64,000 nucleotides of DNA from a candidate division WWE3 bacterium RIFCSPHIGHO2_01_FULL_40_23 (lineage in GTDB: Bacteria > Patescibacteriota > WWE3 > UBA101185 > 2-01-FULL-41-18): the NCBI GenBank assembly GCA_001772615.1, contig MEUZ01000007.1, positions 108,283 through 172,282 on the forward strand, given 5' to 3'. Shown one piece after another: positions 1,217 through 59,031 of the stretch. Each line of letters begins with the position of its first letter. Within the stretch, counting starts at the first letter, position 1. Below the pieces are notes generated by a model, which was given only the letters and a program-made list of their open reading frames with translations, was not told the DNA's origin and made no database searches. The position numbers and the translations under genes were made by a program.

Positions 1217-1297
1217 TTCTCTTTGAGTTCTACTCAACCGCTTGCCGGATACTCACAGCCGGCAAGCTTCTTTCTCTTATCATCCCAAATTCGCTTC

Positions 1298-1378
1298 GTC
1301 ATCCTGAACCTGACTGCCGGCAGGCAGGCTTGATTCAGGATCTGTATTTTAGATTCTGGATCAAGTCCAGAATGACAT
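1298..1378. repeat. Family-1 nested palindromic repeat copy (GTCATCCTGAAC...ATTCAGGATC / GATTCTGGATCAAGTCCAGAATGACAT)
   Basis: Same GTCATyC-hairpin-GrATGAC architecture as copies at 5301, 8085, 13080, 17193, 25213, 27921, 43774 and 58941. Confidence 0.7.
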
Positions 1379-4763: not shown

Positions 4764-5300
4764 AAACTTGACGGCCATTTACAATTAAGGTATAAATTAA
4801 AGCAATGAAAGAAGCGGCAATTTTCCTGTTACAACGACATATTTCGTATTGGCACAGACACAAACAGCTTGGTGTTTGACTCCGGGTTTATTAACCCAAT
4901 AATGTAAGCTCGGAGCTAAATCCCGAGCTTTTTTGTTTTTCTCTAAAAAAGTTGGGGCTTGGTTAAAAAGACAAATTTTGTTTGCCTTTTAAACCCCGTC
5001 CTAACCGCTTTGCAAAACCGAATTTAGTTTTGTGAGGACATGACGTGGAGAAAGGATCGGACTTAGCCATGACGTACCCGAGCTACCGCCCGGCCTACCC
5101 GCCCCCGGCTCGCCCCGCTGATGATTACGATCATCCGCCCCAGGCGCGCACCGCGGACGATTGGCCGCCTCCCGCTCGCCCTAGCTAAACCGGCACGGGA
5201 GTAAGACATTGGACGGTAAGGAGAGTAGTTTGAAAGAAGCAGCTTCCTTACCGTCCAAGTTCATTTTACCATTAGCGTATACATCAATAAGCAGGCTCAC

Positions 5301-5439
5301 GATTCCGGGATTTAGATCCCCGCTTTCGCGGGGATGACATCTGTAATACGGAATGACAACCCCCCCACTTGTCATTCCGTGCCTGACACGGAATCTCTCT
5401 AGGTTGTCGTTGAGATTCCGCATCAAGTGCGGGATGACA
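5301..5439. repeat. Family-1 nested palindromic repeat cluster (3-4 hairpin units)
   Basis: Contains AGATCCCCGCTTTCGCGGGGATGACA, GTCATTCCGTGCCTGACACGGAATC and GATTCCGCATCAAGTGCGGGATGACA. Confidence 0.7.
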
Positions 5440-8040: not shown

Positions 8041-8084
8041 ATGTCTATATTCTCTTCGACACCCTGGGGATTTTTTTTCAGGTT

Positions 8085-8114
8085 GTCATTCTGGACCTGA
8101 TCCAGAATCATGTC
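8085..8114. repeat. Family-1 palindromic repeat unit (GTCATTCTGGACCTGATCCAGAATCATGTC)
   Basis: ATTCTGGA / TCCAGAAT stem between GTCAT and ATGTC flanks. Confidence 0.6.
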
Positions 8115-8171: not shown

Positions 8172-8245
8172 AGGGGTGTCGTTCAGCGGCAGGACGTTGG
8201 TCTCCAAAACCAATAACGGGGGTTCGATTCCCTCCACCCCTGCCA
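8172..8245 (+). tRNA. tRNA-Trp (anticodon CCA)
   Basis: Acceptor AGGGGTG/CACCCCT, anticodon stem TTGGT/ACCAA with loop CTCCAAA, T arm GGGGG TTCGATT CCCTC, GCCA end. Confidence 0.8.
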
Positions 8246-12921: not shown

Positions 12922-13079
12922 TTTTCTCTCCATTCTTTTTTGATTTTGTGTCTTATAGTACTATACATAAATAGAGCTTTTGGGGCAAATCATTTCAATT
13001 TGAAGAATTTTATGTGAAGGTATATGAATCTTGTGGTTAATAAATGGGTTAGCCTTTTAAAGTGACATTTATTCTAAAT

Positions 13080-13148
13080 GTCATCCTGAACTTGATTCAG
13101 GATCTCATATTTTTACAGCAGAGATCCCGGATTTGATCCGGGATGACA
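13080..13148. repeat. Family-1 nested palindromic repeat (two hairpin units)
   Basis: GTCATCCTGAACTTGATTCAGGATC...AGATCCCGGATTTGATCCGGGATGACA. Confidence 0.7.
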
Positions 13149-13864: not shown

Positions 13865-14251
13865 TTTTTCTTCTCCTTTTATCCCTAAGCTCATGGCAAA
13901 AGCTTGGGAAAGACTTAATTACCCTCAAGCCAATTCTTGAGAGCAGAATTTTAGAATCCATTAATCAAACATGAATCCCAAAATCCCATCAAAAAAGCCG
14001 GGAACCAAAGAGAAAACTTCTCTTAAGATCTCGGCCTTCCAACTCGCGCGAAACTATGAAAAAGATCATTGGACAAGCTTGGATCTCTGGTATCCTAGGT
14101 ACACCTTATTATACTATAAGTCATAGATAATGCCAAGCTAAACAAAAGGCCCGGGCGTATTTTTAATTCTCACCAAATACGCCGGGCCTTAACGAGAGTT
14201 CCACTTATCGTTTTTATAACCGGGAGACGTGTCAGCTCACGGTAACCAGGT

Positions 14252-16939: not shown

Positions 16940-16966
16940 GGCTTTTTAGCCTCCTTTTATTTTTTT

Positions 16967-17033
16967 GTCATCGCAAGTGAAGGGCGGTGGTCCTGACTTG
17001 ATTGCTTCGGTCGCTCTGCTTCCTCGCAATGAC
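16967..17033. repeat. Family-2 palindromic repeat (GTCATCGCAAG...GATTGCTTCGG...CTCGCAATGAC)
   Basis: Nested palindromes with outer GTCAT/ATGAC and inner GATTGCTTCG; see other copies. Confidence 0.7.
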
Positions 17034-17192
17034 GAATAATTGGTCATTCTGATGCCTGCCCGCCTCTGGTGGGAAAGCCAGAATCTAGCTGCCTTACAGG
17101 CAACAACCCGCTCCCAAGATAGCAGACTGAATTAAAATTTTTTGAATTGGACCTACCTTCCAATTCCAATCTTATTCAGCCAATCCCACTTT

Positions 17193-17249
17193 AGATCCCG
17201 CATCAAGTGCGGGATGACAGAAGAGTCATTCCCGCGAAAGCGGGAATCT
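17193..17249. repeat. Family-1 nested palindromic repeat
   Basis: AGATCCCGCATCAAGTGCGGGATGACA...GTCATTCCCGCGAAAGCGGGAATC. Confidence 0.7.
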
Positions 17250-17431
17250 AAACATAGGAATTTTCTCCTGATCTTGGAAACGGATTGCTGCCAACAAATT
17301 TTAGAAATGAGCCGACAGCAGGATTAATACCTGTTACCTGTCGGCTCATGTGATTGCTTTGGAAACCTTTCTACCCCATAACCTAGAAGGTAGTTTCCAT
17401 TGAAGGTCTTGTACACGGCAATCCCATTTCA

Positions 17432-17509
17432 GATTGCTTCGCTACGCTCGCAATGACTAAATACATTGTCATCGCGAGGAGGCAGCCTATTGGCTGACAA
17501 CGAAGCGAT
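17432..17509. repeat. Family-2 palindromic repeat
   Basis: GATTGCTTCGCTACGCTCGCAATGAC...GTCATCGCGAGGAGG...CGAAGCGATC. Confidence 0.7.
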
Positions 17510-19273
17510 CTAAAAGTGGGAGAAGATTTGCTTCTCAGCGGTTTCGGCCGTGAATTTCGAAACCAGTTCTATCCGATCCGCGAACTCTTGGACAGTCGCG
17601 ATTGAGCTGGAACCAACATCGCACAAAATTACAAAGATGTTGATTTCCAATTCTTTCTTAACTGTTTTGAGAAAGCGGATAAACTCCGAGCTGACCGCGC
17701 ATTCGCCATCAGTGATGAGACAAATGTCGGCTTTTTTAAGGCCTTCTTCTTGAATCATCTCAATGGCTTTGCGCAGGGGTCGCTCAAAGTCAGTCCCGCC
17801 CCCTGCTTGGGCTTCGGCCAGCTCAAGCATTTGCTGGCCGGTCATCTGGCCCTGCGGATACACCTTTGACAGTTTTAGAACAGAGTCAAAGAGTATCCAG
17901 CCAAACGACCGTTTCTGGAGTTTTGCATAGTGAGCAAGAGACAACGTTGCTGCCTTTGCCCACTGTTGCTTTTCTCCCTCCATGGAACCCGATCCGTCTT
18001 CACAGACGATCACGGGGCCATGGCCCATCTTTTGCCGAACTTTCTGGCCATGAAGCCTAAGCTCCCCACGCGTCCACCTTTGAAGGGCTTTCGCGCGAAG
18101 AGCCGGGTGCACCAATGCAACCAACTCGGTCCTTTGAGCGCGCTTGAGATCGCGACCGGTTTCAACCGTTGCGACCCGCACGCCCTCCCCCGCGATTCTG
18201 GACCTAGCTTTGCGGGACGCGATCTTTCGAACACGCCCAAGCAAAGAAGCAAACTTTTTAAGCGCCTCGTTGCGCTTCATCCGTTCAAGTATCCCCAAAG
18301 TTTGCGGGATTCCCTGGCGGGTGAGTTCGCTTTCTTCCAAGCCCCAGGCCTCAATGGTTTCGGAAACCTCTTCCACCTTGGTCTGGGCATTGCGGACGGC
18401 TTGAAGTCCTATACGAGTCAGCTCACGCAGTTTTTCCTGCGCTTGCTGACTGCCGGGTTCCCCAAGCAGATCCCCTGCCAGTTTTTCGGCTTTAGCTTTT
18501 GCCAAATCAGCCTTTTGCTTTGCAGAATCCGCATTTGCTTTCGCATCGGCGGCTTCTTTAGCAAGCTGATCGGCAATTGCCCGCGCTTCCTCCTGGGTCA
18601 TACCAGAAGACAGCGCGCCCTCCATAGCTTCGTCAGAAGCGACGGAGGGTTGAGCCTGTTCCGAAGTCAACTGCCCTTGGCCGCCTGAGAGTTGACCACT
18701 TGGCTGTCCGCCTTGTGGTTGACCTCCCTGTTGACCTTGGGACTGACCCGAACCTTGTTGACCGGTCGCTTCCGCTGCAGCATCCGCCAACTGCTGAAGC
18801 ATCTGCGCTTGGGTTTGCGCCTGTTGCGCCTGTTCTTCAGCCTGATTGGCTTCCCCTTGAGCGGTTGCCTGCTCCCGGAGCTTTTGCCGATCCTCTTTTG
18901 GCACCAAAGCTAGGACGGATTCGCCCATTGCGACAGTCCCAAGGACCGACTTCAGCTCCGAAAGCGCCGTATCGGCATGAAGCTCCTGGTAAGCACCCGA
19001 TTTAAGGGCTTGCCCCAAAAGCTCCCACCAATACCGCCGATCGGCAGGGACCTCATCACTCACCTGCGGTTCTGGCGACCACAGGGTGTGATAAAGATCC
19101 AACAAGCAACCCTCAACTCCCGGAAGTGCCTCGGCACCTTTTTCTTCCAGTTCCGGGATTGAGGGTACATTCTCACGGTGACGGAGGTAACGCAGTGCCG
19201 TAAAGGCATCCGCGTCGGTCACCGCAAGCGCAAGTACTTCCTGCCGGGTGACCGGCCGTGGCCTAGTGGCCAT
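17510..19273 (-). CDS. von Willebrand factor A (vWA) domain protein with MIDAS motif; long Q/G/A-rich low-complexity and coiled-coil N-terminal half
   Basis: GGAGGAAGA RBS. C-terminal VIVCEDGSGSM (DxSxS MIDAS)...GGGTDFERPL...ICLITDGEC matches the vWA fold. Pairs with the upstream AAA+ gene as in RavA-ViaA / MoxR-vWA systems. Confidence 0.75.
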   Translation of the reverse strand: MATRPRPVTRQEVLALAVTDADAFTALRYLRHRENVPSIPELEEKGAEALPGVEGCLLDLYHTLWSPEPQVSDEVPADRRYWWELLGQALKSGAYQELHADTALSELKSVLGTVAMGESVLALVPKEDRQKLREQATAQGEANQAEEQAQQAQTQAQMLQQLADAAAEATGQQGSGQSQGQQGGQPQGGQPSGQLSGGQGQLTSEQAQPSVASDEAMEGALSSGMTQEEARAIADQLAKEAADAKANADSAKQKADLAKAKAEKLAGDLLGEPGSQQAQEKLRELTRIGLQAVRNAQTKVEEVSETIEAWGLEESELTRQGIPQTLGILERMKRNEALKKFASLLGRVRKIASRKARSRIAGEGVRVATVETGRDLKRAQRTELVALVHPALRAKALQRWTRGELRLHGQKVRQKMGHGPVIVCEDGSGSMEGEKQQWAKAATLSLAHYAKLQKRSFGWILFDSVLKLSKVYPQGQMTGQQMLELAEAQAGGGTDFERPLRKAIEMIQEEGLKKADICLITDGECAVSSEFIRFLKTVKKELEINIFVILCDVGSSSIATVQEFADRIELVSKFTAETAEKQIFSHF

Positions 19274-19287
19274 ATCTTCCTCCAGTT

Positions 19288-19354
19288 GTCATCGCGAGCG
19301 AAGCGTGACGATCTCGGCTTGATTGCTTCGGCCGCTCCGCTTCCTCGCAATGAC
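19288..19354. repeat. Family-2 palindromic repeat
   Basis: GTCATCGCGAGCGAAGCG...GATTGCTTCGGCCGCTCCGCTTCCTCGCAATGAC. Confidence 0.7.
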
Positions 19355-19359
19355 ATGAA

Positions 19360-20568
19360 TCACCTATTCGGTGCGATGAAAACCGCGATCACTTTCTGCT
19401 TCACGGCCTCCACCTGCTGGTGCAAATTGGCAATTTCCTGCCGCATTGCATCACCACCTTCCACCTCACCCTCAAGGCGCATCAGCTCTTTCACAGCGCT
19501 TTCGCACTGGGTCAGAGCCGCAACGCCCTTAGTGCGGTCACCACCCAAAACGATCTGAACGGTGCCGCCGGGGGCGAGGAGGCTGTCAACGAGCTCTTGG
19601 GCCTCCGTGAGCGCTGTCTGGGTATACGGCGCGAGCTTCGCCTTGACAACGGCGATTTGCTCGGGCGTATACCAGAGCAACCACTCAAGGACGACGAGGT
19701 CCTGCTTTCCAACCACTGTCCGACCGTTGAGCAAGGCGTTAGCCTGCATCACGTCGAACAGACGGCCGAAACGCCGATCGTCGTCCCAAGCCCACTTGAA
19801 GTCCGCCGAAGTGTCATCAACCAGCTCCTGGAGGATATCCAGGGTGGTGTCGATGATCGCCTCGGGGACCTCGACGAACAGACGAGCCTTGCGCAGAACC
19901 TCAACATCCGCCAGGGTTAACTGGGCGACTGCCTGACTCCGCGAGCTTGCGCGGTCGCGGCTGAGCCGAGCCTGCACAAGCTTCTTCTTCCCACCCCGAT
20001 CCAGTGGGTTCACCACAACACGGATGGTCATACGAGACCACACCGCACTAAGGTTTCCTTCCTGATCGGGCAGCTCGTTGCTAGCAGCGAGGAAAGCCAA
20101 TAATGGCGTTCTCACCATCTGGCCTTCATGCCTCACCCCATCGCCTTTAGAGAGATCGAGGAGAGTCTGAAGCACGCTGGCTTCCGACTTCCAGATCTCG
20201 TCGGCGAAGACGATGTGCGCGAGGGCCGCGCGCCCGAGCTGATCACGCGTTCGGATCTGCTTCCCACCATCCGCGGTCGGAACTTCTTCGATCGAGGTTG
20301 ACTCGACCAAAAGCTGTTCCACCGAGACGATGGTCGGCATGAGCGCGTCGTAAAAGACCGCGCCCGAAATCCGACGCACCAACGCCTGGATCGTTCCCGT
20401 CTTGTCAATCCCGGGCGATCCGAGGAAGAAAGCCGGACGACCAGACACGAGGGCAAGCCATGTTGCCCAAACGATATCGCTGCGCTGGATGTGGCTTGCT
20501 TCCACATCAGCGCTGATGTCCCTCACCTTGGGGGCAAGGGCTAAAGCCTCTTTTAGCAAGGCTTCCAT
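19360..20568 (-). CDS. MoxR/RavA-like AAA+ ATPase
   Basis: GAGGAGGTGGGG RBS. Walker A GSPGIDKT (GxPGxxK[ST] as in RavA), Walker B IVFADEI, sensor-1-like ASNELP. 402 aa. Confidence 0.7.
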   Translation of the reverse strand: MEALLKEALALAPKVRDISADVEASHIQRSDIVWATWLALVSGRPAFFLGSPGIDKTGTIQALVRRISGAVFYDALMPTIVSVEQLLVESTSIEEVPTADGGKQIRTRDQLGRAALAHIVFADEIWKSEASVLQTLLDLSKGDGVRHEGQMVRTPLLAFLAASNELPDQEGNLSAVWSRMTIRVVVNPLDRGGKKKLVQARLSRDRASSRSQAVAQLTLADVEVLRKARLFVEVPEAIIDTTLDILQELVDDTSADFKWAWDDDRRFGRLFDVMQANALLNGRTVVGKQDLVVLEWLLWYTPEQIAVVKAKLAPYTQTALTEAQELVDSLLAPGGTVQIVLGGDRTKGVAALTQCESAVKELMRLEGEVEGGDAMRQEIANLHQQVEAVKQKVIAVFIAPNR

Positions 20569-20753
20569 TTTTCCCCACCTCCTCGGGGGGGTATTCTAAT
20601 AATTGGGATTTGAAAGGTTTCCGGATTTACCGGAAAGAGGGTTTCTCCTCTCTAAAACTAAAACAACTGCGTTGAGTATAAATATTGTTTTAATCTTAGA
20701 GAGAAGGGCCAGCAGAAAGTATCTTTTGAATACATTGCTGACCCAGGCAATCC

Positions 20754-21096
20754 TTATATCTCCTCGAATTCAAAATGAAGCGCTTTAATCCGGCGGAACT
20801 CAACAAACTTGTACCACCGCCCTTTAACGCTCACTTCCCCTTCAGCCGGTGGAACCTGTTGCATTTGGGCCCACAAAGGCTTGACGCCAAGTTCCACGAG
20901 CTTTGCGATCACGGAGAGGGGAGCCCACGACAACGATGTCATCGTAACCACCACTACGAAACCGCACGACGATATCCTCAGCCGATGAAAACGGCTTCGG
21001 ATCCTTCACCACCTCAACCTCACCAAAAATCCGCTTGAGAGCAGAAATCTGAGAGGGGAGGGGCTCATGCTGGGACATCCACAAGATCTTCTTCAT
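20754..21096 (-). pseudogene. small hypothetical gene apparently split by a frameshift (or assembly indel) near 20950
   Basis: GGGAGG RBS before MKKILWMSQHEP... (ORF 20842-21144). The protein-like sequence continues in another frame (ORF 20754-20954). The in-frame continuation of the first piece is R/G-rich junk. Confidence 0.35.
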
Positions 21097-21277
21097 TTTT
21101 TGGGCCTCCCGTTTCCGATCAGTATAGTTGCTATTTTCCAGCACCAGCTATACCAATCGGTTTTGGCACTTTGGGTTTCGATCCAAGCTCGCCATCTATC
21201 ATGCGAGTCGGTTCTTCGCATCAATCTCCCAGCGAGAATCTTAAACCAAAGTTTTAAGAACTCCCAGAGGACCTCAA

Positions 21278-21553
21278 TCATTTCTCACCTCCGCGGAGTT
21301 CTTCCACCGCTTTTTTGAAAGCTTCTTCTCCTTCATCGCGACGGATAACTGCCAACCAGCGCGTACCCTTGGCAAAAGTCAGATTCGTCATCTGATCTTT
21401 TCCCATCAAACGCGTATACAAGCCAGCCGCATCAAACGAAGCCGATGGGGATTTGGATCCTGCAATTTCAATCGCCTTCTCAATATCTTTCCCATCGACC
21501 CTTCCCTCCTTATACAGAAGGGTCAAAAACTGGACACCGGTACGAGCATCCAT
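21278..21553 (-). CDS. small hypothetical protein
   Basis: AAAGGAG RBS; 91 aa. Confidence 0.55.
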   Translation of the reverse strand: MDARTGVQFLTLLYKEGRVDGKDIEKAIEIAGSKSPSASFDAAGLYTRLMGKDQMTNLTFAKGTRWLAVIRRDEGEEAFKKAVEELRGGEK

Positions 21554-21710
21554 CTTAAATCTCCTTTTTTTAATGGGCCAATATCAATATTAAGAAAAAG
21601 GTTATTCACCTCACAGAATTTTCTATTAACTAAATTGAAATAAAAAACTCTGAGAAAGGCTTAAGAGACTGGATTTACCAAAATCTTAAGCCTATGTGTG
21701 GGTCAGGATC

Positions 21711-22175
21711 TCAAACGGCGTACCGCCCGTCAGAAAGCGTGTACACCAAATCCCTCCTTTCACCAGCTAAACACTTGGCCCCCGCACTCTCCATAATTTC
21801 CGGAGTGAGCTGGACCCAGCCTTCCCCTGGTGAAGAAAGACCGAGGGTTGCCACCTTAAACATCTGGCTGTTCCAGTCTTGCGAAAGCCAGAACGTCCAG
21901 GAAGCGGCCTGATCTTCCGAAACCCACTCGGGAAGATCGAGCCGAAAGCCAGCAATCGCGGTTACGGCGATCATTGGCTCTATTCTCCCCTCCTCCCCAA
22001 ACCGGAAACCATGTGTTTCCTGGTAAGGTGGGGAAGGGTTTACCTCCCAACTCCCGTCGATGAAAGCGACAACGTCGCCCACGACGAGAGCTCCTTCTCT
22101 GCCTTCGACAGACAGAGCACGGACCGATGATCCGAGCTGCTGCCACTCAACGGCAGACGGGTATCTGATCTTCAT
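21711..22175 (-). CDS. hypothetical protein
   Basis: AAAGGAG RBS 8 nt upstream; 154 aa. Confidence 0.55.
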   Translation of the reverse strand: MKIRYPSAVEWQQLGSSVRALSVEGREGALVVGDVVAFIDGSWEVNPSPPYQETHGFRFGEEGRIEPMIAVTAIAGFRLDLPEWVSEDQAASWTFWLSQDWNSQMFKVATLGLSSPGEGWVQLTPEIMESAGAKCLAGERRDLVYTLSDGRYAV

Positions 22176-22271
22176 CTCAACACTCCTTTGTTTCCCGTCG
22201 GGCTCAAGGCCTTAATGGGATGTTGTTGAATGATTTCTTCTTTGAGCTTTCGCTCTCAAAATCTTCCATTA

Positions 22272-22361
22272 GATTGCTTCGCTACGCCTGCCTGCCGGCA
22301 GGCAGGCTCGCAATGACTTTAAACCAGGTCATTGCGAGGCTACAAAGTAGCCGAAGCAATC
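22272..22361. repeat. Family-2 palindromic repeat (extended, with CTGCCTGCCGGCAGGCAGG core)
   Basis: GATTGCTTCGCTACGCCTGCCTGCCGGCAGGCAGGCTCGCAATGAC...GTCATTGCGAGGCTACAAAGTAGCCGAAGCAATC. Confidence 0.75.
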
Positions 22362-22585
22362 TTGAGTAAATGGAAAACTTTAAGAGCGAGCCGACAGAAG
22401 AAGTACAAAGTACATTCCAAATTCTGTCGGCTCTAAGAGATAAATTGCTTTGTTGGTTTGATTTCTAATCGACGTTAGCGCGTCGTCAGGCTCAAACCTT
22501 CCTAAAAGCCTTTGGTTTCGGGTTCGGGTTAGAAGATCCAGGAATTAAGTCTCTCCCTTTTCTTCACCCCCGATTCCATTTTACT

Positions 22586-23851
22586 TTAAAGCGGAAACGG
22601 AATCACACTCCCAACAGGAACCTGGCTATCGTTTGAAAAAACAACGACAGCAGGCCCATGGCTGGGGTGAAGTTCGCTCCACTTTTTCCCGCTGACGGTG
22701 CGGGAAGACTCCCCAGGTTCAAATACAGCAACCCAGGAAGTTCCAGATTTGGTGTAGGACCTGGCGATAGCGCCGGTTAGCCACCGTGGCGCCTTGCCCG
22801 AAATCACTATACCCTTCTCCGTTTTCACGGAGGGCGGGATCACCAAGGGCAAATTCTTTACATCAAAAATCTGCCCGGGGATGCCAAACTCGACAAGAGT
22901 ATGATCATCCCTCTCCTCAACCCGCCAGTTGAGAAGTTGGCTGCCCTCACCCTGCGGTTCAACCTCCGGTATTCCTACATAACCCCAAGCTACCTTGGGA
23001 TCATAATAGAATACCTTCGTTGACTTTAGCCCGCAGGCGAGGGCATGGTATGGGGCTCCAAGCGGCGTGTTTCCCCAGAGGCACACCTTGCTTTGGCCGG
23101 CAACCTTTGCCGATACCATTGCAAGTAGCCCGGGGAGAACCGCCGGGAGCCAATCCCGATCCGATCCGCCATTTCGGACAGGGAGATTCAGACCCTCAGC
23201 CAGTCGCGGAAAGTTCACATCCGCAAGCTCGGACCCATCGGTCCAAGGCTCTGGCTGACCCGCAAGCTTTATTAAAAGCTCGGCCACCGCGCGGGCAGTC
23301 GGTGACCCAATCGGTGGCGTTTCCCGCTCAAGCCTCGTAATTCTGGCTTTGAGTGGAGCCCCCGTCTCAAACACCTCGTCCTCGGCCCCGACCAGAACCG
23401 ACTCCAGAATCGCCAAGGGTTTTACCCCAAGGCGCCCCGCTTCGGAAATCCAAGTCGGAACCACCTCGTCATATTTCGGCGACGCAATCACCAGAAGGTA
23501 ATCGCACCCCGAAAGAATGCGCTCGTTTTGGGAAGTCAGTTTAACCCCTGTCGGGGAAAACCTCCCTTCCACATCGAGCAACATCCCGCCAAGGTCGACG
23601 AGAGTCACGGGCATTCGGGAGTTGCGAACCGAGTCAACGACCCAGTCCACAAACCCATCAAGAAACTTGCCCTTGCGGCGAACCGCCTTGACAAGTTCCG
23701 GGTCCGCTTCAAAGCTCCAGCCGGTGATGCCCTCACCGTCAGGAGCCGCCTCAACGACGACAAAACTATCGCGAGGCAGAAGGGTCCGAAGCAGACCCAT
23801 GAGAACAGTCTTCCCCGAGTGGGGAGGACCGCCGATGGCCACTTTGACCAT
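22586..23851 (-). CDS. P-loop NTPase domain fused to an uncharacterised C-terminal domain
   Basis: AAGGAGGAGG RBS before MVKVAIGGPPHSGKTVLMGLL (Walker A GxxxxGKT); Walker-B-like LVDLGG. The C-terminal ~220 aa has no motif I recognise. Confidence 0.6.
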   Translation of the reverse strand: MVKVAIGGPPHSGKTVLMGLLRTLLPRDSFVVVEAAPDGEGITGWSFEADPELVKAVRRKGKFLDGFVDWVVDSVRNSRMPVTLVDLGGMLLDVEGRFSPTGVKLTSQNERILSGCDYLLVIASPKYDEVVPTWISEAGRLGVKPLAILESVLVGAEDEVFETGAPLKARITRLERETPPIGSPTARAVAELLIKLAGQPEPWTDGSELADVNFPRLAEGLNLPVRNGGSDRDWLPAVLPGLLAMVSAKVAGQSKVCLWGNTPLGAPYHALACGLKSTKVFYYDPKVAWGYVGIPEVEPQGEGSQLLNWRVEERDDHTLVEFGIPGQIFDVKNLPLVIPPSVKTEKGIVISGKAPRWLTGAIARSYTKSGTSWVAVFEPGESSRTVSGKKWSELHPSHGPAVVVFSNDSQVPVGSVIPFPL

Positions 23852-24124
23852 TTCCTCCTCCTTTTGGGGAGATAATCGAAGGGCGAATTCCCTTCTTAAC
23901 ATTTTGTTTAGTAAGTTTGATCAGCGTTAACTTACATCCGGTTAGTCTTCCGGAGAGCGCGGCAGTTGCGGAAAGAAAACCTGCTCAAGGTTAACTTTCC
24001 GTCCCTAATTCAAGTATGGCTGGGCTGACCCTTCCATTGTTTCATGAAGATTAAACTGCATCTCCACTACTCCATTCGATATTGCTATCGAAACTTAATT
24101 TGACAATCAGGGATTTGTAAAAAA

Positions 24125-25009
24125 CTAGGCCTTGGTCTCGCAGGTGGCCGAGGTGATGGCCAGGCGGAAAACCTGCCCACCTGGGAAGGCCACCGAGATG
24201 GTGCCCTCGCCGGCCTCGACCGAAACGCCATACGTACCGAGCTCGCTCGCCAATTGGCGAAGAGTCCCGGCGGTGGCGTCCGACTGCCACTTGGCAGTCA
24301 TGTTCGTGCCCCACAGGCGCATGTCCTGGGGGTCCACGATCTCACCAACGTGGAACGCCTTGTCGGCGCCACTGGCGAGGCGGATGGTCCGCGGCCAGCT
24401 CTCCGAAAGGCCGTGAATCGTCGCGGCTTGGAGAGCCGCGGCAAGACCGGCGCCCGCGGGGAGGTATAAAACCCGCCGCGAGGCCCAGTCGGCCTTGGTC
24501 AAACCGGTTGCGATCAGCCGGTCGACCATACCCTTGGTCGGGTCGGCCCAGTCGATTTGGCCGACGTTCGCGTCAATGGCGCGAATTTCCTCGACCGCCA
24601 CGTCGAGGATTTGGGCAAGCTCCCCAAGCTGCCCAGCGCTCATCCCCCGCCCGGACCCGTCCAAGACGGTGTAGCCGAGAAACGCTTCCCCTTGGGGGAC
24701 ATCACCGCGGCGACTGCGGACCGCCTGATGGCGGTAGCCACCGAGGTCCAAAACCCCCACCCGCTCGGCCTTTTGGCCGATCGAGTACAACGTCAGCGTC
24801 GGCAGTCCGCTGACCATTTCCAACCCCGCCGTGGCCAAAATGGCCGCCACGGCCTGCCCGGGAAGCGCGACCTCGCCCGCGGTCCGAAGACCGGGGCCGG
24901 CGGACTCCAAAATCTTTTGGACCTGGGCCAAAAAGTTCTGGCCAAAGTCCAGGGTTGCCGGCACGACCACGTCGGCCGGCAGGGCCAGATGAAACGAAAA
25001 TTTGGTCAT
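24125..25009 (-). CDS. hypothetical protein, possible ASKHA (actin/sugar-kinase-like) ATPase fold
   Basis: AAGGAGAAATCTC RBS. Gly-rich phosphate-loop-like segments VGVLDLGGYRH and YTVLDGSGRGMSAG. The fold call is weak. Confidence 0.45.
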   Translation of the reverse strand: MTKFSFHLALPADVVVPATLDFGQNFLAQVQKILESAGPGLRTAGEVALPGQAVAAILATAGLEMVSGLPTLTLYSIGQKAERVGVLDLGGYRHQAVRSRRGDVPQGEAFLGYTVLDGSGRGMSAGQLGELAQILDVAVEEIRAIDANVGQIDWADPTKGMVDRLIATGLTKADWASRRVLYLPAGAGLAAALQAATIHGLSESWPRTIRLASGADKAFHVGEIVDPQDMRLWGTNMTAKWQSDATAGTLRQLASELGTYGVSVEAGEGTISVAFPGGQVFRLAITSATCETKA

Positions 25010-25212
25010 GAGATTTCTCCTTTCTTCCTAGCCAACACTAATCCTTCCTGTTTTGTTTAAATCCCTCGGACGAAGCTATCCTTGGAAACAGAAAGGTTGA
25101 TAAATCCTGAATCTGCTCCAACTAAATTTTTGCCGTCACAAAAATCCGGTTGGAGAAAATCCAACGAATATACCCAATCCTTTAGTTTTTATTTCTAATC
25201 TGAACTTATGAA

Positions 25213-25264
25213 CGTCATCCTGAACTCGATTCAGGATCTAGATCCTGACTTGCGTCAGGATGAC
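25213..25264. repeat. Family-1 nested palindromic repeat
   Basis: GTCATCCTGAACTCGATTCAGGATCTAGATCCTGACTTGCGTCAGGATGACA. Confidence 0.7.
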
Positions 25265-25544
25265 AATTAGTAAGGACTTTTCAGAATGGGAACTTAAAAT
25301 GAAATTTCCAATCCGCAGAGCTCTTGCCAGCCATGCGACTTTAACTCAAAGTTAGAAGCCCACGCACCTTTAGTTGCGAGATACGGATTGGAATAAGAAA
25401 TGATTGCTGCCGTCTTCTCCGGAGTTAATTATTTTGATTACTCCAAAGAAAACCGGTCATAGGCAAATATTTTCCAAAGGGTATCTTTGGCCTTTTGTAA
25501 TTCCCGCCGCGAATACCACTGGAGGTTTCGCCTTTGCCATTTGT

Positions 25545-26012
25545 AGTGGCGGGAAGCTCAAGGATTTTATTAGTCTCGTCCGGGTTTCTCTATCCTCTTT
25601 GAGGTTCCACCGGGCGCCTTCGGCATTTCACAACAGCTTTTTTCAACTTATGAAGAGATACTTCACAAGTACTGTTGGATATTTGGGGCCGATTAGGTTG
25701 CATGCTTTTATGCATGGGGTATCCCAAACCCCGGGTGACTTGTTTTTAACCTTACCTGGGTCGATTCACCATTTCCCAGTACCAATACTTATCGCTTTTT
25801 AGGCGCCTTGGCAGGGCTATGCAATTTTAACGAAGGCATATCCTTCGGATAATCTATTTCGTGATTATCAATGTACGGGATTTACCCATCCTTGCGGATT
25901 GGGTTTCCTCTAATCGCCGGATCCTTCGGACCTGCCCACTGAAAAGTGGACTTGTCCTCCGTAGCCTTGGCGAAGGAGGATGAGTGACAAAGCCTAAATC
26001 CCTTCAGGCTTC
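25545..26012 (-). ncRNA. rnpB: Structured RNA with RNase P RNA hallmark motifs (candidate rnpB)
   Basis: Minus strand, 5'->3' in canonical order: GGAGGACAAGUCC (P4 5' strand-like), GGGCAGG, GAGGAAACCCA, CAGGUAAGG, UUCAUAAG, AGAGAAACCCGGAC (P4 3' strand-like). No protein-like ORF spans it; ORF 25404-25802 lies over it and is probably spurious. The P4 pairing is imperfect in my hand alignment. Confidence 0.45.
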
Positions 26013-26018
26013 GGGGGG

Positions 26019-26258
26019 CTAGTCGGCATGCATGACCTCTTCATGCACCCGGATCGCTTCCGCGATCAGGGCGTTGAAGTCGGTCGCCGGGTCCACGTGA
26101 AAAACCTGCACATAGACCGTAGGGCGGCCCTCTTTGACTGGATAAACCAGTCGGAAGGCCCCAACCTCGGCTACCCGATTCCCCCCATCAAATACCACCA
26201 CATTGTGGAGGTACTCCCCAGTCCGGTAGTTCCGGACGGGGACAAAGCTAAGACTCAT
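26019..26258 (-). CDS. small hypothetical protein
   Basis: AAGGAGGG RBS before MSLSFVPVRNY; 79 aa. Confidence 0.5.
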   Translation of the reverse strand: MSLSFVPVRNYRTGEYLHNVVVFDGGNRVAEVGAFRLVYPVKEGRPTVYVQVFHVDPATDFNALIAEAIRVHEEVMHAD

Positions 26259-26439
26259 CTTCAACCCTCCTTTCCTGCTCAAGGCTCATCCGCCTATGGC
26301 GGACGGTTGCGATTACTTAAATCGCAAGGAGCATGCCCACCCAGTGGACGAAGGAAGAAAATGAGTAATTGCCCACCCGATTTTGATAAGCAAATACTCA
26401 TCTTCTTTACTAAACTCTTGCTTTCAAAATTTTCTATAA

Positions 26440-26505
26440 GATTGCTTCGCTCCGCTCGCAATGACGTTAAACTAGGTCATAGCGAGGCTACAAAGTAGCT
26501 GAAGC
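26440..26505. repeat. Family-2 palindromic repeat
   Basis: GATTGCTTCGCTCCGCTCGCAATGAC...GTCATAGCGAGGCTACAAAGTAGCTGAAGC. Confidence 0.7.
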
Positions 26506-26969
26506 TTGAATAAATAAAAAACTTTGAAAGTGAGCCGACGGCAGGAATAGTACCTGTAGTTTACATCGGCTCAGAGATTTATTGCTTGCCATTTTCCCTT
26601 CAACCGTTACCGGATGTCGGGCACAACCCAATAGATTAACTTAAGTTTTGATCTCGCCTAAGATCTCACTTAAGAGCCGTTTCCTTTTTCATCACTCCGC
26701 GCGGTCCCCAGGGTAAGGTCTTAACCCGTAACCGCTTTGCGCTCATGCTTATCCCTCCGTCTCTATCAGGCGTTCAGGAGGTGCTCATCAGCCGCATGAG
26801 ATCGGTCCGTTCCGTTTGCTCTTCAAGGCTCTCCCTAAAGGAAAGCTCAAACGGAACTTTCCTCAGGGAGCCTCTTCACAAGAAACGAAGAGACCGTTCG
26901 CCTTAACCGGTTTTTCGCACATGGTGCCATGTTTCCGGAAAGGCAGGGTTTGCTGATAACCCTTTCACA

Positions 26970-27401
26970 CTAGGCGCGGGCGTGAAGGGCCTTGTGGACC
27001 TTCTGCCGCGCCTTCCGGCTTCCCCCTCCGCCGTACAACGCCCCCTTCTGCCCGGGAGCGCCCTGGGCTTTCCGGGAGTCCTGGGCCCGGGCGGCCTGCC
27101 GAGCCGCGCGAGCGCTCTCGCGGGCCGCGTTGAGGGCCCTCGCCTCGGGACTCCCAGGGGCTGGGCGGCGGGCTACCGCGGCGGACGCTTGTCGGCGCCC
27201 GAGTTCCCCTGCCGCTTTGCGAGCGGCCTCCTCCCCCCTGAACTTCTCCCAGGCCTCATCGGCCTGGACCTTCACCGTGCGGAAAGCACGGCACGCACGG
27301 TCGCAAAAGCTCTGCGACCTTGAGCTCCCCCACGTCGGGGGGAAAACGACCGTGGCGGTCGCGAGGGCTTTCGCCCCGCAACCGCAGTTAATAATATTCA
27401 T
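26970..27401 (-). CDS. hypothetical protein with N-terminal Cys cluster and Arg/Ala-rich tail
   Basis: AAAAGGAGAAG RBS; MNIINCGCGAK...CDRACRAF followed by low complexity. Last gene of the GC-rich island. Confidence 0.45.
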   Translation of the reverse strand: MNIINCGCGAKALATATVVFPPTWGSSRSQSFCDRACRAFRTVKVQADEAWEKFRGEEAARKAAGELGRRQASAAVARRPAPGSPEARALNAARESARAARQAARAQDSRKAQGAPGQKGALYGGGGSRKARQKVHKALHARA

Positions 27402-27494
27402 TTTTTACTTCTCCTTTTTGATTTATTTTTCCGTTCAAAGATTCCTTCCTTAAAAGAAATCCTCCAAAGGCAAAACAACTCTTTGGAGAAATAT

Positions 27495-27574
27495 GTCATC
27501 GCGAACGAAGTGAAGCGATCTCTTCAGATTGCTTCTCCGCTTCTGACAGTTGGCGGATAGTGGATCGCAATGAC
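27495..27574. repeat. Family-2 palindromic repeat
   Basis: GTCATCGCGAACGAAGTGAAGCGATC...GATTGCTTCTCCGC...GATCGCAATGAC. Confidence 0.7.
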
Positions 27575-27920
27575 TCAAGGAGGATAGGTTTTGGGGAGAA
27601 GGCAGGCTTACGAAAAACCTCACCCTCTCCCCTAACCTCAAAATACAAATTTCAAGTAATAGTTTATTCAATTGTCAAAGTGCTTTTGGGCCGTTATGAA
27701 AGTGTTAAAATACTAAATGAGTCAATAACGCAATCAAAAAACCCAAAAACGTACACAAAGCATTAATAAATGGATCAATACTTTGTCCAGTTTGGAGGCC
27801 CTACCACCTCCATCCTGGATAAAAGTCAACTACTTTTCATTTGGTAGGTTTAGTAATTGACCCTTCTTGATTGACAAGTCTCTTGTCAATCAAGAAGTTG
27901 ATTCATCGTTTACGGGTTCT

Positions 27921-28031
27921 GTCATTCCGGCGAAAGCCTGTCATCCTGACGTAAGTCAGGATCTAGATCCCGGGTCAAGCCCGGGATGACAAGGATCCAG
28001 TCCTGTACGACATAAAGTCAGCTCAGGATGA
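27921..28031. repeat. Family-1 nested palindromic repeat cluster (four hairpin units)
   Basis: GTCATTCCGGCGAAAGCC, GTCATCCTGACGTAAGTCAGGATC, AGATCCCGGGTCAAGCCCGGGATGACA and AGTCAGCTCAGGATGAC. Confidence 0.75.
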
Positions 28032-28326
28032 CTTAAAAAATTTAAATTTGGCTTAGGAAAATGAAGGTAGGGTTAAGTCTCTCCCCTAACTTCAATCCTA
28101 TTCATCCTAATCTGAACCTCCTTTTAAGAGGTTCAGTTAAGATCCAAACTGTGAGGAGTAATCCTCACGCTTGGGTTCTCTCCCCTCGTACCAAACATGA
28201 ATTTATTGGCAGGTTACGAAGGTAGGTTTCAGGCTTTAGCCTGATTCGTAAACAAATTAATGTTTACTACTTGTTTATAGTCCGCGCGGATTACTCCGGG
28301 CTAAGACTCCTTCAGTTTCAGCTTGA

Positions 28327-28383
28327 GATTGCTTCTCCCTCAACATCCACCTGCCTCAGGCAGGAGCTCGGGATCGCAATGAC
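28327..28383. repeat. Family-2 palindromic repeat
   Basis: GATTGCTTCTCCC...CTGCCTCAGGCAGG...GATCGCAATGAC. Confidence 0.65.
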
Positions 28384-29349
28384 GTACTGAAAGCAAAGAA
28401 CTTTAGCCCTGCTTCGCCCTTCGGGCTACACAGGACTTAAGAAACTGTATTTTCGCCAATGGCGAAAACAGTTTCTAAAGCAATCAATCTCTCGTATTAG
28501 AGGCCACCCTTTCCACCGGTTGGCGGACCAGATTCCTCAAGCATTTCCGGCAAAGCCGGTACTAATAAGCTTATTTACTCGCGGTAGGAGGCTAAATTTA
28601 CTGTCGGTGTTGGGATATACCCAAAACAGGCTCAAAGAGCGTAAACAAGCCAAGCTTTCAATAAACTACAGGTCTTGTCATACTTTTTCGCTAATTTACC
28701 GATACTTATAGGACAAGCCTTTAAACTGCGTGCTTTGTTATTTACCCTACTCCGTCCGCCTGTCGGCTGACTACGCAGGGCTTAAGAGCTCCCAATCTGC
28801 TTCGCAGGAAGAAGCCTCTAAAGCAGGCATAAATCTATCTGCACGGTCGGTAGGACCTTAAAAATCTCTCCCCTTTCAAGGCAGGTTAAACCTCCTAAAT
28901 ATCGGGTGTTTTCAAGTATTTCCGTGCCATGTAGACAGATCTCTACCTGCTATTTCTCTCATTGTCATATAACTATAGGTTCTTCTAATCCGGTTACCCT
29001 TAAAGGCCAACAGGACAAGACAAAGCTTTAGCCTTCTAACCCAAGTTATAGGCAACAAAAAAGCCAGGATCTAAGGAAAAGACTTTTCCCTAAATCCCGG
29101 CTTTCTATGAGAGTTACAAGCTTTGGTAGGCTTTAACTTAAGCACAAAGGATATGGTAGGTCTCTCCCTTCACTTAATTTCAATTTTCAAAGTCCATTTG
29201 ACTTTACGATCTTATTATATCCTATAGCAAACATTCTGTCAAGTGCTCTGACAAAATACACAAAATGAAAAGAAGCAATTTAGCTTCCATCACAGCACTA
29301 TAATACTACAGGTCTTGACATTTGTCAATAACTTTGACACTATTTCTTT

Positions 29350-43773: not shown

Positions 43774-43855
43774 GTCATTCTCGTGAGAGCGGAGATCAAC
43801 ATTGTCATTCCCGCGAAAGCGGGAATCTAGATCCTGGATCAAGTCCAGGATGACA
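43774..43855. repeat. Family-1 nested palindromic repeat
   Basis: GTCATTCTCGTGAGAGCGGAGATC, GTCATTCCCGCGAAAGCGGGAATC, AGATCCTGGATCAAGTCCAGGATGACA. Confidence 0.7.
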
Positions 43856-58885: not shown

Positions 58886-58940
58886 AATAAAGCCAAGTAT
58901 ATCATCTTTACGCTCAAATCTTCCAAAGCCCTTCGTAACA

Positions 58941-59031
58941 GTCATTCCAGCGAAAGCTGGAATCTAAGATTAAAGATGCCGGATCATCTGCCGGCTGGCG
59001 GACGGCATGACATAAAAGTCAGTCCAGGATG
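58941..59031. repeat. Family-1 nested palindromic repeat
   Basis: GTCATTCCAGCGAAAGCTGGAATC (compensatory C->A / G->T relative to the CCCGCGAAAGCGGG copies) followed by GATGCCGGATCATCTGCCGGC...CATGAC. Confidence 0.7.

What the first reader, a model, noticed from the sequence alone, without database searches (positions are those of the whole stretch)
22272..22361. Family-2 repeats: nested palindromes GTCATCGCGAGG... / GATTGCTTCGG... confined to the island
Seven copies (16967, 17432, 19288, 22272, 26440, 27495, 28327) share an outer GTCAT(C/T)GCGAG / CTCGCAATGAC palindrome and an inner GATTGCTTCG / CGAAGCAATC palindrome, with variable centres; copy 22272 has a CTGCCTGCCGGCAGGCAGG core. They occupy essentially every intergenic gap between island genes and are absent from the low-GC backbone outside the island. 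They therefore travel with the island.
Basis: seen in the sequence. Interest (0 to 1): 0.5.

Follow-up and report, generated by a model that had tools for sequence, protein, structure and literature searches.

The report
REP-type palindromic repeats crowding a genomic island
The "family-2" nested palindromes are real. They are an ordinary kind of bacterial junk-like repeat (REP/REPIN-type hairpin elements of the CGTC-tagged class), found from Proteobacteria to phages, that has piled up between the genes of a GC-rich defence island in a tiny candidate-phylum (WWE3) bacterium; they are not markers specific to that island.

Summary
**Observation:** confirmed. All seven loci exist. They hold 13 copies of one unit, (Y)GTC-AT(T/C)GCGAG-[variable hairpin]-CGAAGC(A/G)AT-CT: six inverted dimers and one single unit.

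**What it is:**
- The unit has the tag, AT-initiated stem and C-Y-A tail of the CGTC-tagged REP superfamily (Di Nocera 2013).
- The window's simple GTCAT hairpins ("family 1", spread along the whole window) are canonical members of that superfamily.
- The family-2 core occurs exactly in at least 120 loci of genomes from more than 10 phyla, and in at least 120 viral contigs. It is mostly in inverted dimers, with no recurrent neighbouring gene.

**Insertion, not operon part:** five homologous MoxR-VWA operons lack the repeats. Three of them have MoxR-VWA gaps of only 1-10 nt, where this window has a 67-nt dimer.

**Island confinement:** true inside the window, false for the chromosome. A family-2 dimer sits in 43% GC backbone about 4.4 kb left of the window. 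Enrichment in the island is still about 30-fold.

**Other points:**
- An exact 15-mer is shared by the loops of a backbone family-1 unit and island unit 22272.
- No transposase was found, so the mobilising mechanism is inferred.

**Verdict:** new member of a known kind, modest interest.

The parts
16966..17034 (.). Family-2 tail-to-tail dimer (tags outward), placed directly upstream of the RBS and start of the 895-aa gene. Unit + at 16966-16999 is degenerate. Unit - is at 17000-17034.
   Evidence: 83% identical over 69 nt to the dimer at 19286-19354. HMM hit E = 1.4e-6.
17430..17512 (.). Family-2 head-to-head dimer (tags inward). Unit - at 17430-17458 (GTCATTGCGAGCGTAGCGAAGCAATCT). Unit + at 17467-17512, the C-G stem variant. 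Its ATCTA tail overlaps the TAG stop of the VWA gene (17510-17512, minus strand).
   Evidence: DNA fold -21.4 kcal/mol, z = -5.3. HMM E = 1.2e-8. A Logan contig ends exactly at 17432.
19287..19355 (.). Family-2 tail-to-tail dimer that fills the 86-nt MoxR-VWA intercistronic gap, between the MoxR stop (19360) and the VWA RBS/start (19273). Unit + at 19287-19314, unit - at 19320-19355.
   Evidence: Homologous operons have gaps of 10, 1 and 9 nt here and no unit.
22270..22363 (.). The reported copy: a family-2 head-to-head dimer. Unit - at 22270-22318 carries the inserted 20-nt palindrome CCTGCCTGCCGGCAGGCAGG. Spacer TTTAAACCAG. Unit + at 22327-22363 has the apical hairpin GGCTAC-AAA-GTAGCC.
   Evidence: DNA fold -37.1 kcal/mol, z = -9.4. 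The 15-mer CTGCCGGCAGGCAGG is also in the family-1 unit at 1314-1328. A Logan contig ends at 22308.
26438..26510 (.). Family-2 head-to-head dimer. Unit - at 26438-26466. Unit + at 26475-26510 has a degenerate 3' half. It is part of a composite of about 160 nt that is repeated at 22236-22395.
   Evidence: 84% identity over 90 nt with 22306-22395. HMM E = 5e-9.
27494..27575 (.). Family-2 tail-to-tail dimer, about 93 nt upstream of the 143-aa gene start. Unit + at 27494-27523 (C-G variant). Unit - at 27525-27575 (expanded centre, GCGAT instead of GCGAG).
   Evidence: Weak HMM hits.
28325..28384 (-). Single family-2 unit with an expanded centre that contains a CCTGCCTGAGGCAGG hairpin.
   Evidence: Same AGATTGCTTCTCC...GATCGCAATGAC dialect as the backbone copy at L141:4765-4800.
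1297..1377 (.). Family-1 (canonical CGTC/TGTC-tagged REP) dimer in the backbone. The left unit's loop carries CTGCCGGCAGGCAGG.
5299..5397 (.). Family-1 cluster in the backbone. One unit (5313-5339) is nested inside the loop of another (5299-5358). A further unit lies at 5370-5397.
8084..8111 (+). Single family-1 unit, just upstream of tRNA-Trp.
13079..13148 (.). Family-1 tail-to-tail dimer, in the backbone just outside the island.
17042..17087 (+). Family-1-type unit with an expanded loop, in the same gap as two family-2 dimers.
17192..17250 (.). Family-1 head-to-head dimer inside the island. It includes ATTCCCGCGAAAGCGGGAATC, which fits the neisserial dRS3/REPIN pattern.
   Evidence: REPIN seed sequence quoted.
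25213..25265 (.). Family-1 tail-to-tail dimer inside the island.
27939..27991 (.). Family-1 tail-to-tail dimer inside the island. Another assembly's contig starts at 27963.
43803..43855 (.). Family-1 tail-to-tail dimer in the backbone.
58940..59012 (.). Family-1 pair in the backbone.

Best explanation
**What it is.** The family-2 repeats are REP-type (repetitive extragenic palindrome) miniature elements of the CGTC/TGTC-tagged class. Most are arranged as inverted REPIN/BIME-like dimers.

**Anatomy of one unit.**
- an unpaired YGTC tag;
- a 5-bp basal stem, AT(T/C)GC / GC(A/G)AT;
- a conserved purine-rich internal loop, GAG / CGAA;
- a variable apical hairpin, often the GCGNAGC 'mini-hairpin DNA' motif;
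- a C-Y-A tail.

**How it got here.** They are non-coding, non-autonomous DNA that has been inserted into intergenic and intercistronic spacers. In this window they sit in a horizontally acquired, GC-rich defence island (bpMoxR-VWA operon, AAA-Csx3, Csx15-like) of a candidate division WWE3 (CPR) bacterium. The island is simply the place where they have accumulated. They belong to the genome's general REP population and to a pan-bacterial and phage-borne sequence family.

**Inferred, not shown.**
- They spread as single-stranded DNA hairpins through a hairpin-specific enzyme acting in trans. A RAYT-like HUH tyrosine transposase encoded elsewhere is the leading candidate.
- Once inserted inside operons they are co-transcribed, and may secondarily act as RNA hairpins that affect processing or stability.

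**What the confidence covers.** The stated value is for the class assignment (dispersed REP-type element, inserted, not an island-specific marker). The RAYT-type mobilisation step alone I would put at about 0.4.
For: **Repeat is real and non-random:**

**Unit anatomy and shared ends with family-1 hairpins:**

**Fit to the published description of CGTC-tagged REPs.** The paper describes a CGTC or TGTC tag, stems that start with A-T pairs, a CCA-type tail, dimers, intergenic location and no dedicated transposase (PMC3733652). In 164 foreign units the base before GTCAT is C in 102 and T in 54, and the tail is C-(C/T)-(A/C)-G.

**Structure is under selection.**
- The stem pair covaries: T-A 156, C-G 5, C-A 3, T-G 0.
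- 37 of 47 variable centres fold better than their shuffles, and their stems differ by compensatory changes.
- 107 of 164 units contain GCGNAGC or GCGNNAGC, against 3.8% of shuffled cores. The motif is reviewed in PMC13037366.
- Dimers fold far better than shuffles, z = -9.4 and -5.3.

**Dispersed family.**
- At least 120 genome loci in Alpha-, Gamma- and Deltaproteobacteria, Chloroflexota, Bacteroidota, Cyanobacteria, Patescibacteria, Zixibacteria, Planctomycetota, Nitrospirales, Helicobacter and Sporomusa. Locus GC ranges from 32% to 72%.
- At least 120 viral contigs.
- 101 of 164 units have a tail-to-tail partner.
- About 80% lie outside long ORFs.

**Insertion rather than native operon part.** Five homologous operons lack them; three have MoxR-VWA gaps of 1-10 nt against 86 nt here.

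**Signs of mobility or nesting.** One family-1 unit lies inside the loop of another (5299-5358). The same 15-mer is found in loops of a family-1 and a family-2 unit.

**Backbone copy on the same chromosome:**

**Link to a transposase in a related family.** The neisserial REPIN seed ATTCCCGCGCAGGCGGGAATC, attributed to a Group 2 RAYT, differs from the window's ATTCCCGCGAAAGCGGGAATC only in the loop.
Against: - **No mobilising enzyme seen.** There is no RAYT, IS200-like or other transposase in the 64-kb window, its about 12 kb of flanks, or the 240 foreign loci. The single query (E. coli YafM) was recalled from memory, so sensitivity is limited. The literature itself says CGTC REPs lack a dedicated transposase.
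- **Weak single-unit fold.** The commonest short unit is not a stable hairpin with standard DNA parameters, z about 0. Its stability rests on the special GCGNAGC mini-hairpin, which those parameters do not model.
- **Geometry differs.** It is not the 8-9 bp uninterrupted stems and 4-5 nt loops described for CGTC families 1-4.
- **No recent movement seen.** No presence/absence polymorphism was found between strains; all assemblies are identical.
- **Conservation across phyla.** This fits poorly with the view that REPIN-RAYT systems are lineage-specific and vertically inherited.
Confidence: 0.78

Rival explanations
1. **Origin rival.** The units are REP-type relics that came in with the island from a donor genome rich in family 2, probably another, higher-GC Patescibacteria lineage. 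They are immobile here.
For: - Density is about 30-fold higher in the island: 7 loci in 14.5 kb against 1 locus in about 62 kb of sampled backbone.
- Family 2 and family 1 are distributed differently (p = 4e-4).
- Island genes are 49-71% GC against about 40% in the backbone.
- Their closest homologues are in Patescibacteria on contigs of 46-54% GC.
- Family-2 units in other Patescibacteria share the ATCT tail dialect.
Against: - A family-2 dimer lies in the low-GC backbone 21 kb from the island. It has the same dialect as island units 27525 and 28325.
- All five homologous operons examined lack family 2.
- Backbone-type family-1 units lie inside the island, so REPs insert there in situ.
- A 15-mer loop insert is shared between a backbone family-1 unit and an island family-2 unit.
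Confidence: 0.3
2. The palindromes are recombination sites that mark junctions between gene cassettes (integron attC-like or another site-specific system), so the island is a cassette array.
For: They sit between co-oriented genes of heterogeneous GC content (49-71%). They are imperfect palindromes with variable centres, superficially like attC sites.
Against: - No integrase or recombinase was found in the window or its flanks.
- There are no RYYYAAC/GTTRRRY core sites at the ends (sequence).
- Only 5 of about 10 gaps are occupied, and one gap holds two dimers.
- One dimer splits a conserved MoxR-VWA operon junction that is 1-10 nt in relatives.
- The same unit occurs singly or in dimers at hundreds of unrelated loci and in phage structural-gene spacers.
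Confidence: 0.04
3. They are native cis-acting RNA elements of the island's operons (processing sites, stabilisers, attenuators or terminators), kept for regulation, and are not mobile DNA.
For: - Location between co-directional genes, including directly after a stop codon and directly before an RBS.
- Very stable dimer hairpins.
- REPs in general are reported to act on mRNA stability and termination.
Against: - They are not conserved in homologous operons.
- There are no T-tracts, and none is called terminator-like.
- The identical core occurs in hundreds of unrelated contexts and phyla.
- Single units show no consistent strand bias relative to flanking genes: 18 sense against 16 antisense in viral contigs.
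Confidence: 0.1

Closest known systems
CGTC-tagged REP superfamily (Di Nocera, De Gregorio and Rocco 2013, PMC3733652), which includes neisserial dRS3 repeats and some rickettsial RPEs
   Same: - Unpaired CGTC/TGTC tag, stem starting with A-T pairs, short C-C/T-A tail.
- Frequent inverted dimers, mostly intergenic, found in several phyla.
- No linked transposase.
- The window's family-1 hairpins (8-bp stem, 4-5 nt loop) fit the description fully.
   Different: - Family 2 has a 5-bp basal stem, a conserved purine internal loop, and a variable apical hairpin of 3 to more than 30 nt, instead of an uninterrupted 8-9 bp stem with a 4-5 nt loop.
- The tag is less conserved in this genome (T5, C3, A3, G2).
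- The host is a CPR bacterium, a group not covered in that survey.
- The paper's consensus figure could not be read, so I cannot exclude that the Bradyrhizobium 'CGTC-1 with unusual loops' is this same unit.
REPIN-RAYT systems (Bertels and Rainey; Nunvar et al.)
   Same: - Two inverted REP units separated by a short spacer that can fold into one long hairpin.
- Singletons look like decayed dimers.
- The Neisseria REPIN seed ATTCCCGCGCAGGCGGGAATC matches the window's family-1 units except in the loop.
   Different: - No RAYT gene was found here.
- REPINs are described as lineage-specific and vertically inherited, whereas the family-2 core is identical across more than 10 phyla and present in viral contigs.
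- Both dimer orientations occur in this window.
E. coli BIMEs / neisserial NIMEs (mosaic intergenic arrays of REPs)
   Same: Several palindromic units of different subfamilies, in alternating orientation, are packed into one intergenic gap. For example, 16940-17509 holds two family-2 dimers, three family-1 units and another hairpin.
   Different: Unit sequences differ (GTAG-type in E. coli). Protein binding (IHF, gyrase, Pol I) is known for BIMEs and untested here.
Integron attC sites
   Same: Imperfect palindromes with variable centres between co-oriented genes.
   Different: No integrase, no R''/R' core motifs, not one per gene, and dispersed genome-wide and across phyla outside any array.

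Membership tests
CGTC-tagged REP superfamily | Unpaired terminal tag CGTC (or TGTC/CCTC) at one end | tested here: met
   In 164 foreign family-2 units the base before GTCAT is C in 102 and T in 54. In the window's family 2 it is T5, C3, A3, G2; in its family 1 mostly T.
CGTC-tagged REP superfamily | Stem begins with complementary A-T residues at positions 1 and 2; short unpaired tail near CCA | tested here: met
   All units read GTC-AT...AT-C. The tail is C-(C/T)-(A/C)-G in other genomes and CTA/CTN in the window.
CGTC-tagged REP superfamily | Uninterrupted stem of 8-9 bp with a loop of 4-5 nt (families CGTC-1 to -4) | tested here: not met
   Family 2 has a 5-bp basal stem, a GAG/CGAA internal loop and a variable apical hairpin. 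The feature is met by the window's family-1 units. Family 2 is therefore a structural variant, not a canonical member of families 1-4.
CGTC-tagged REP superfamily | Multicopy, mostly intergenic, frequently in inverted dimers; no adjacent transposase | tested here: met
   - 8 loci in about 76 kb of this chromosome.
- 111 of 164 foreign units have an inverted partner.
- About 80% lie outside long ORFs.
- No recurrent neighbouring protein.
REPIN-RAYT system | Inverted REP doublet with a short spacer that can form one long hairpin | tested here: met
   Six dimers in the window. Fold z-scores are -9.4, -5.3 and -2.0. The spacer mode in other genomes is 23-32 nt.
REPIN-RAYT system | A cognate single-copy RAYT (HUH Y1 transposase) gene in the same genome, usually flanked by the REPs | tested here: inconclusive
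   None was found in the window or flanks, nor within 8 kb of 120 genomic or 120 viral loci. The rest of the WWE3 genome could not be read.
REPIN-RAYT system | Lineage-specific sequence, vertical inheritance | tested here: not met
   The exact core is present in more than 10 phyla and in viral contigs.
Integron attC / cassette array | Nearby intI integrase; R''(RYYYAAC)...R'(GTTRRRY) cores; one site at the 3' end of each cassette | tested here: not met
   No integrase (Pfam; precomputed Pfam). The ends are AGAT.../...ATCT or GTCAT.../...ATGAC. 5 of about 10 gaps are occupied, and one gap has two dimers.
MITE | Terminal inverted repeats flanked by a target-site duplication; derived from an IS | tested here: not met
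   No direct duplication flanks any of the seven loci (sequences). Units also occur singly and in both dimer orientations. No related IS was found.
Intrinsic terminator | GC-rich hairpin followed by a T-run | tested here: not met
   None of the 20 terminator-like sites at 13800-29400 coincides with a family-2 unit.

The most novel reading that the evidence does not exclude
Family 2 is a distinct, horizontally spreading hairpin element built around the ultra-stable GCGNAGC DNA mini-hairpin. It propagates without a dedicated transposase by exploiting a universal host or phage single-strand DNA enzyme. That would explain an identical core in more than 10 phyla, in phages, and even in a roughly 1-Mb CPR genome. 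On this reading, the island-heavy distribution here catches an invasion in progress in newly acquired DNA.
Probability: 0.12. Interest if true: 0.7.

Novelty: new member of a known kind. Interest (0 to 1): 0.3.

Why it matters
- **For annotation.** These units make assemblies break (contigs end at 17432, 22308 and 27963). They create spurious ORFs and false gene tails: the called 156-aa ORF at 26028-26498, and the fmt C-terminus and stop codon. They should not be read as island junction markers.
- **For biology.** REP-type elements of the CGTC class, whose mobilising enzyme is still unknown, occur in a reduced CPR genome and in phage contigs with a core conserved across phyla. That sits uneasily with the picture of REPINs as strictly vertical and lineage-specific. 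CPR genomes, with very few genes, would be a convenient place to look for the missing enzyme.

Tried and rejected
- **Rfam.** Gathering threshold on the whole window, and E-value mode on 16.9-28.5 kb: only tRNAs and sub-threshold noise.
- **Literature search by sequence.** Only primer coincidences.
- **Partner protein.** I clustered all ORFs within 0.6-1 kb of units in 120 genomic and 120 viral loci. The only recurrent 'families' were translated repeats and, in the viral set, a group of related phage structural genes. My recollection that small GIY-YIG (COG2827) genes accompany such repeats found no support in that clustering.
- **RAYT search.** phmmer with E. coli YafM (sequence from memory) against the window and the loci found nothing.
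- **Strains without the island or without the repeats.** Look-ups of flanking proteins gave only identical sequence and contig breaks. One look-up failed because the ORF is not on record.
- **Strand bias of single units relative to genes.** None consistent.
- **Rejected readings.** attC, MITE and terminator (see membership tests). CRISPR was rejected because there is no regular spacing.

Full report
**1. Observation**

Window 22272-22361 reads GATTGCTTCG-CTACG-CCTGCCTGCCGGCAGGCAGG-CTCGCAATGAC-TTTAAACCAG-GTCATTGCGAG-GCTACAAAGTAGC-CGAAGCAATC.

- The 11-mer CTCGCAATGAC (up to 1 mismatch) occurs 11 times against 0.77 expected. All hits lie at 17023-28383.
- GATTGCTTCG occurs 14 times against 4.7 expected.
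- Reading all loci shows a single unit, (Y)GTC-AT(T/C)GCGAG-[centre]-CGAAGC(A/G)AT-CT, present 13 times.
  - Tail-to-tail dimers (GTCAT ends outward): 16966-17034, 19287-19355, 27494-27575.
  - Head-to-head dimers (GTCAT ends inward): 17430-17512, 22270-22363, 26438-26510.
  - One single unit: 28325-28384.
- A profile built only from units of other genomes finds nothing credible elsewhere in the window.
- The sequence is identical in independent ENA, JGI and Logan assemblies. Some of their contigs end exactly inside the repeats, at 17432, 22308 and 27963.

- The nesting order is reversed in half of the loci.
- 28327 is a lone unit.
- The CCTGCC..GGCAGG palindrome is an insert in the left unit, not the centre of the whole.
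- Family 2 occupies 5 of about 10 island gaps.

**2. Anatomy**

- *Single units.* They fold as a 5-bp basal stem (ATTGC/GCAAT), a purine internal loop (GA / GAA) and an apical hairpin.
- *Stem covariation.* Across 164 units from other genomes the third stem pair covaries: T-A 156, C-G 5, C-A 3, T-G 0. Three window units are the C-G form.
- *Variable centres.* They are usually hairpins of their own, with different, compensating stems; 37 of 47 fold better than their shuffles.
- *Mini-hairpin motif.* 107 of 164 units contain GCGNAGC or GCGNNAGC, against 3.8% of shuffled cores. This is the 'mini-hairpin DNA' motif, reported as extraordinarily stable and nuclease-resistant as single-stranded DNA and not captured by standard energy parameters (PMC13037366). 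That is why the commonest 26-nt unit, GTCATTGCGAGCGAAGCGAAGCAATC, scores no better than its shuffles.
- *Dimers.* They are very stable: -37.1 kcal/mol, z = -9.4 for 22270-22363.

**3. Relation to the other hairpins in the window**

About 20 simple hairpins of the form TGTC-AT(Y)C....G(R)AT-CTA (8-bp stem, 4-5 nt loop) are spread over the whole window, inside and outside the island, mostly as inverted dimers. They share the GTC-AT...AT-CT frame with family 2.

- One is nested in the loop of another (5299-5358).
- The exact 15-mer CTGCCGGCAGGCAGG sits in the loop of backbone unit 1297-1344 and in island family-2 unit 22270-22318. Chance expectation is 0.09.

**4. What is known**

Di Nocera et al. 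2013 (PMC3733652) define a 'CGTC-tagged' REP superfamily with these features:
- an unpaired CGTC or TGTC tag;
- stems of 8-9 bp that almost always start with A-T pairs;
- loops of 4-5 nt;
- a CCA-like tail;
- frequent dimers and mostly intergenic location;
- presence in several phyla;
- no associated transposase.

Neisserial dRS3 repeats are CGTC-1 members. The window's family 1 fits this fully. Its ATTCCCGCGAAAGCGGGAATC differs only in the loop from the Neisseria REPIN seed ATTCCCGCGCAGGCGGGAATC, which Bertels and Rainey tie to a Group 2 RAYT.

Family 2 shares the tag, the A-T start and the tail. In other genomes the base before GTCAT is C in 102 and T in 54 units, and the tail is C-Y-A-G. 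Its stem geometry differs. I therefore treat it as a structural variant within the REP/CGTC kind. I could not view the paper's consensus figure.

**5. Distribution elsewhere**

Locus GC ranges from 32% to 72%.
- It hit the same limit in IMG/VR viral contigs, where it lies between phage structural genes.
- 101 of 164 units have a tail-to-tail partner (spacer mode 23-32 nt), 10 have a head-to-head partner, and 55 are single.
- No protein family recurs next to them, and no YafM-like RAYT lies within the loci.

**6. Context here**

An identical VWA protein is named by NCBI as coming from candidate division WWE3 bacterium RIFCSPHIGHO2_01_FULL_40_23, a CPR bacterium.

*The island.*
- It spans about 14.0-28.5 kb. 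Its genes are 49-71% GC against about 40% in the flanks.
- It carries a bpMoxR-VWA-895-aa operon, an AAA-Csx3 fusion and a Csx15-like gene, all on the minus strand.
- It lies in a 29.6-kb stretch between tRNA-Trp and secE-nusG-rplK.

*Placement of the repeats.*
- The dimer at 19287-19355 fills the MoxR-VWA gap between stop codon and RBS.
- In three homologous operons (VWA 73%, 64% and 68% identical) that gap is 10, 1 and 9 nt.
- Five homologous operons contain no family-2 unit.
- The repeats are therefore insertions, not parts of the operon.
- None is terminator-like.

**7. Is it confined to the island?**

- *Within the window:* yes. There are 13 family-2 and 6 family-1 units inside, and 0 family-2 and 10 family-1 units outside (p = 4e-4).
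- *Beyond the window:* fetching 9.2 kb beyond the left end and 3.1 kb beyond the right end of the same chromosome revealed a family-2 head-to-head dimer in 43% GC backbone, at L141:4765-4875, about 4.4 kb left of window position 1. Its left unit, AGATTGCTTCTCCGCCAGCCGGCGGATCGCAATGAC, supplies the last codons and the TGA stop of the fmt gene. It has the same dialect as island units 27525 and 28325.
- *Conclusion:* 'absent from the backbone' is false for the genome, although density is still about 30-fold higher in the island.
- No island-free or repeat-free strain was found. The rest of the genome could not be read with these tools.

**8. Mechanism**

*Shown:*
- a dispersed, multicopy hairpin element under structural constraint;
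- inserted into gaps that are tight in relatives;
- of the same frame as canonical CGTC REPs;
- present in phages.

*Inferred:*
- propagation as single-stranded DNA hairpins by a trans-acting hairpin-specific enzyme, with RAYT-type the leading candidate and the enzyme unidentified;
- accumulation in the island because recently acquired DNA with long spacers tolerates insertions, and/or because some copies came with it;
- secondary effects on operon mRNA as RNA hairpins.

About 160 nt around the dimers at 22.3 and 26.4 kb are 78-84% alike, so part of the copy number reflects duplication of a larger composite.

**9. Verdict**

- The feature is a new member, possibly a structural variant, of a known kind of repeat.
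- Interest is modest. It rests on the cross-phylum and phage distribution, the presence in a CPR genome, and the still-missing mobilising enzyme.

Noticed in passing
window 17258-17412 (minus strand); L127:4392-4548; L129:7772-7935; partial copies at window 22375-22470 and 26519-26620 (minus strand): A conserved structured non-coding element of about 150 nt lies between the VWA gene and the third gene of bpMoxR operons. It has GGAAAC...GTTTCC stems, a long hairpin GAGCCGACAG...CTGTCGGCTC with compensatory changes (5 of 38 pairs) and a duplicated AGCAAT/GTTTCC motif. The hairpin recurs next to each head-to-head family-2 dimer in the island. A weaker relative is in L139. It has no Rfam match and may be an unreported cis-regulatory RNA of these systems.
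   Followed up: partly
L141:4765-4875 (same chromosome, about 4.4 kb left of window position 1): A family-2 dimer in the low-GC backbone between convergent genes. Its left unit forms the C-terminal codons (...DCFSASRRIAM*) and the stop codon of the fmt (formyltransferase) gene call.
   Followed up: yes
window 13985-14136 and 29055-29242 (both minus strand): Two mini-units that are 72% alike bracket the GC-rich island. Each has a near-consensus promoter (TTGGCA/TTGACA-17-TATAAT) followed about 60-140 nt later by a strong hairpin plus T-run. They could be paralogous small RNA genes or leaders, or remnants of the island's integration.
   Followed up: partly
window 1314-1328 and 22287-22306: The exact 15-mer CTGCCGGCAGGCAGG (part of a 20-nt perfect palindrome at 22287-22306) is inserted in the apical loop of a backbone family-1 unit and of the island family-2 unit. 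This looks like a third small palindrome that targets REP loops.
   Followed up: partly
window 5299-5358 (minus strand): One family-1 REP (5313-5339) is nested inside the loop of another, a REP-in-REP insertion.
   Followed up: no
window 8172-8245 to 37899: tRNA-Trp and secE-nusG-rplK, usually neighbours, are separated by about 29.6 kb. This stretch holds toxin-antitoxin pairs (Phd/YefM, PIN), the GC-rich island, a TrmB regulator and an ABC-F-like protein, so it looks like a variable region. A TrmB gene also neighbours the homologous operon in L139.
   Followed up: no
window 22586-23902 and 24125-25009 (minus strand): An AAA-Csx3 fusion and a Csx15-like protein (type III CRISPR accessory families) are present with no CRISPR array or cas genes in the 64-kb window.
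   Followed up: no
window 26630/26631 against L002:478-514; window 27075-27134 against L131:2089-2196: Strain-level indels between otherwise identical assemblies: a 37-nt insertion (TGGGTGGGCGGGCACTCTATAGCTACTTCGTATCACT), and a length variant inside the 71% GC 143-aa gene.
   Followed up: no
window 26028-26498 (+): A 156-aa ORF called as a gene in public annotation runs through the family-2 dimer at 26438-26510 on the strand opposite to all island genes. It has no Pfam or PADLOC hit and is probably a spurious ORF created by the repeats.
   Followed up: partly
L162, L183, L193 (viral contigs): Some viral contigs carry 4-6 family-2 units, all in one orientation, including four tandem copies at 33-nt spacing (L193:2695-2818). 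This arrangement differs from the inverted dimers that dominate in bacterial genomes.
   Followed up: no
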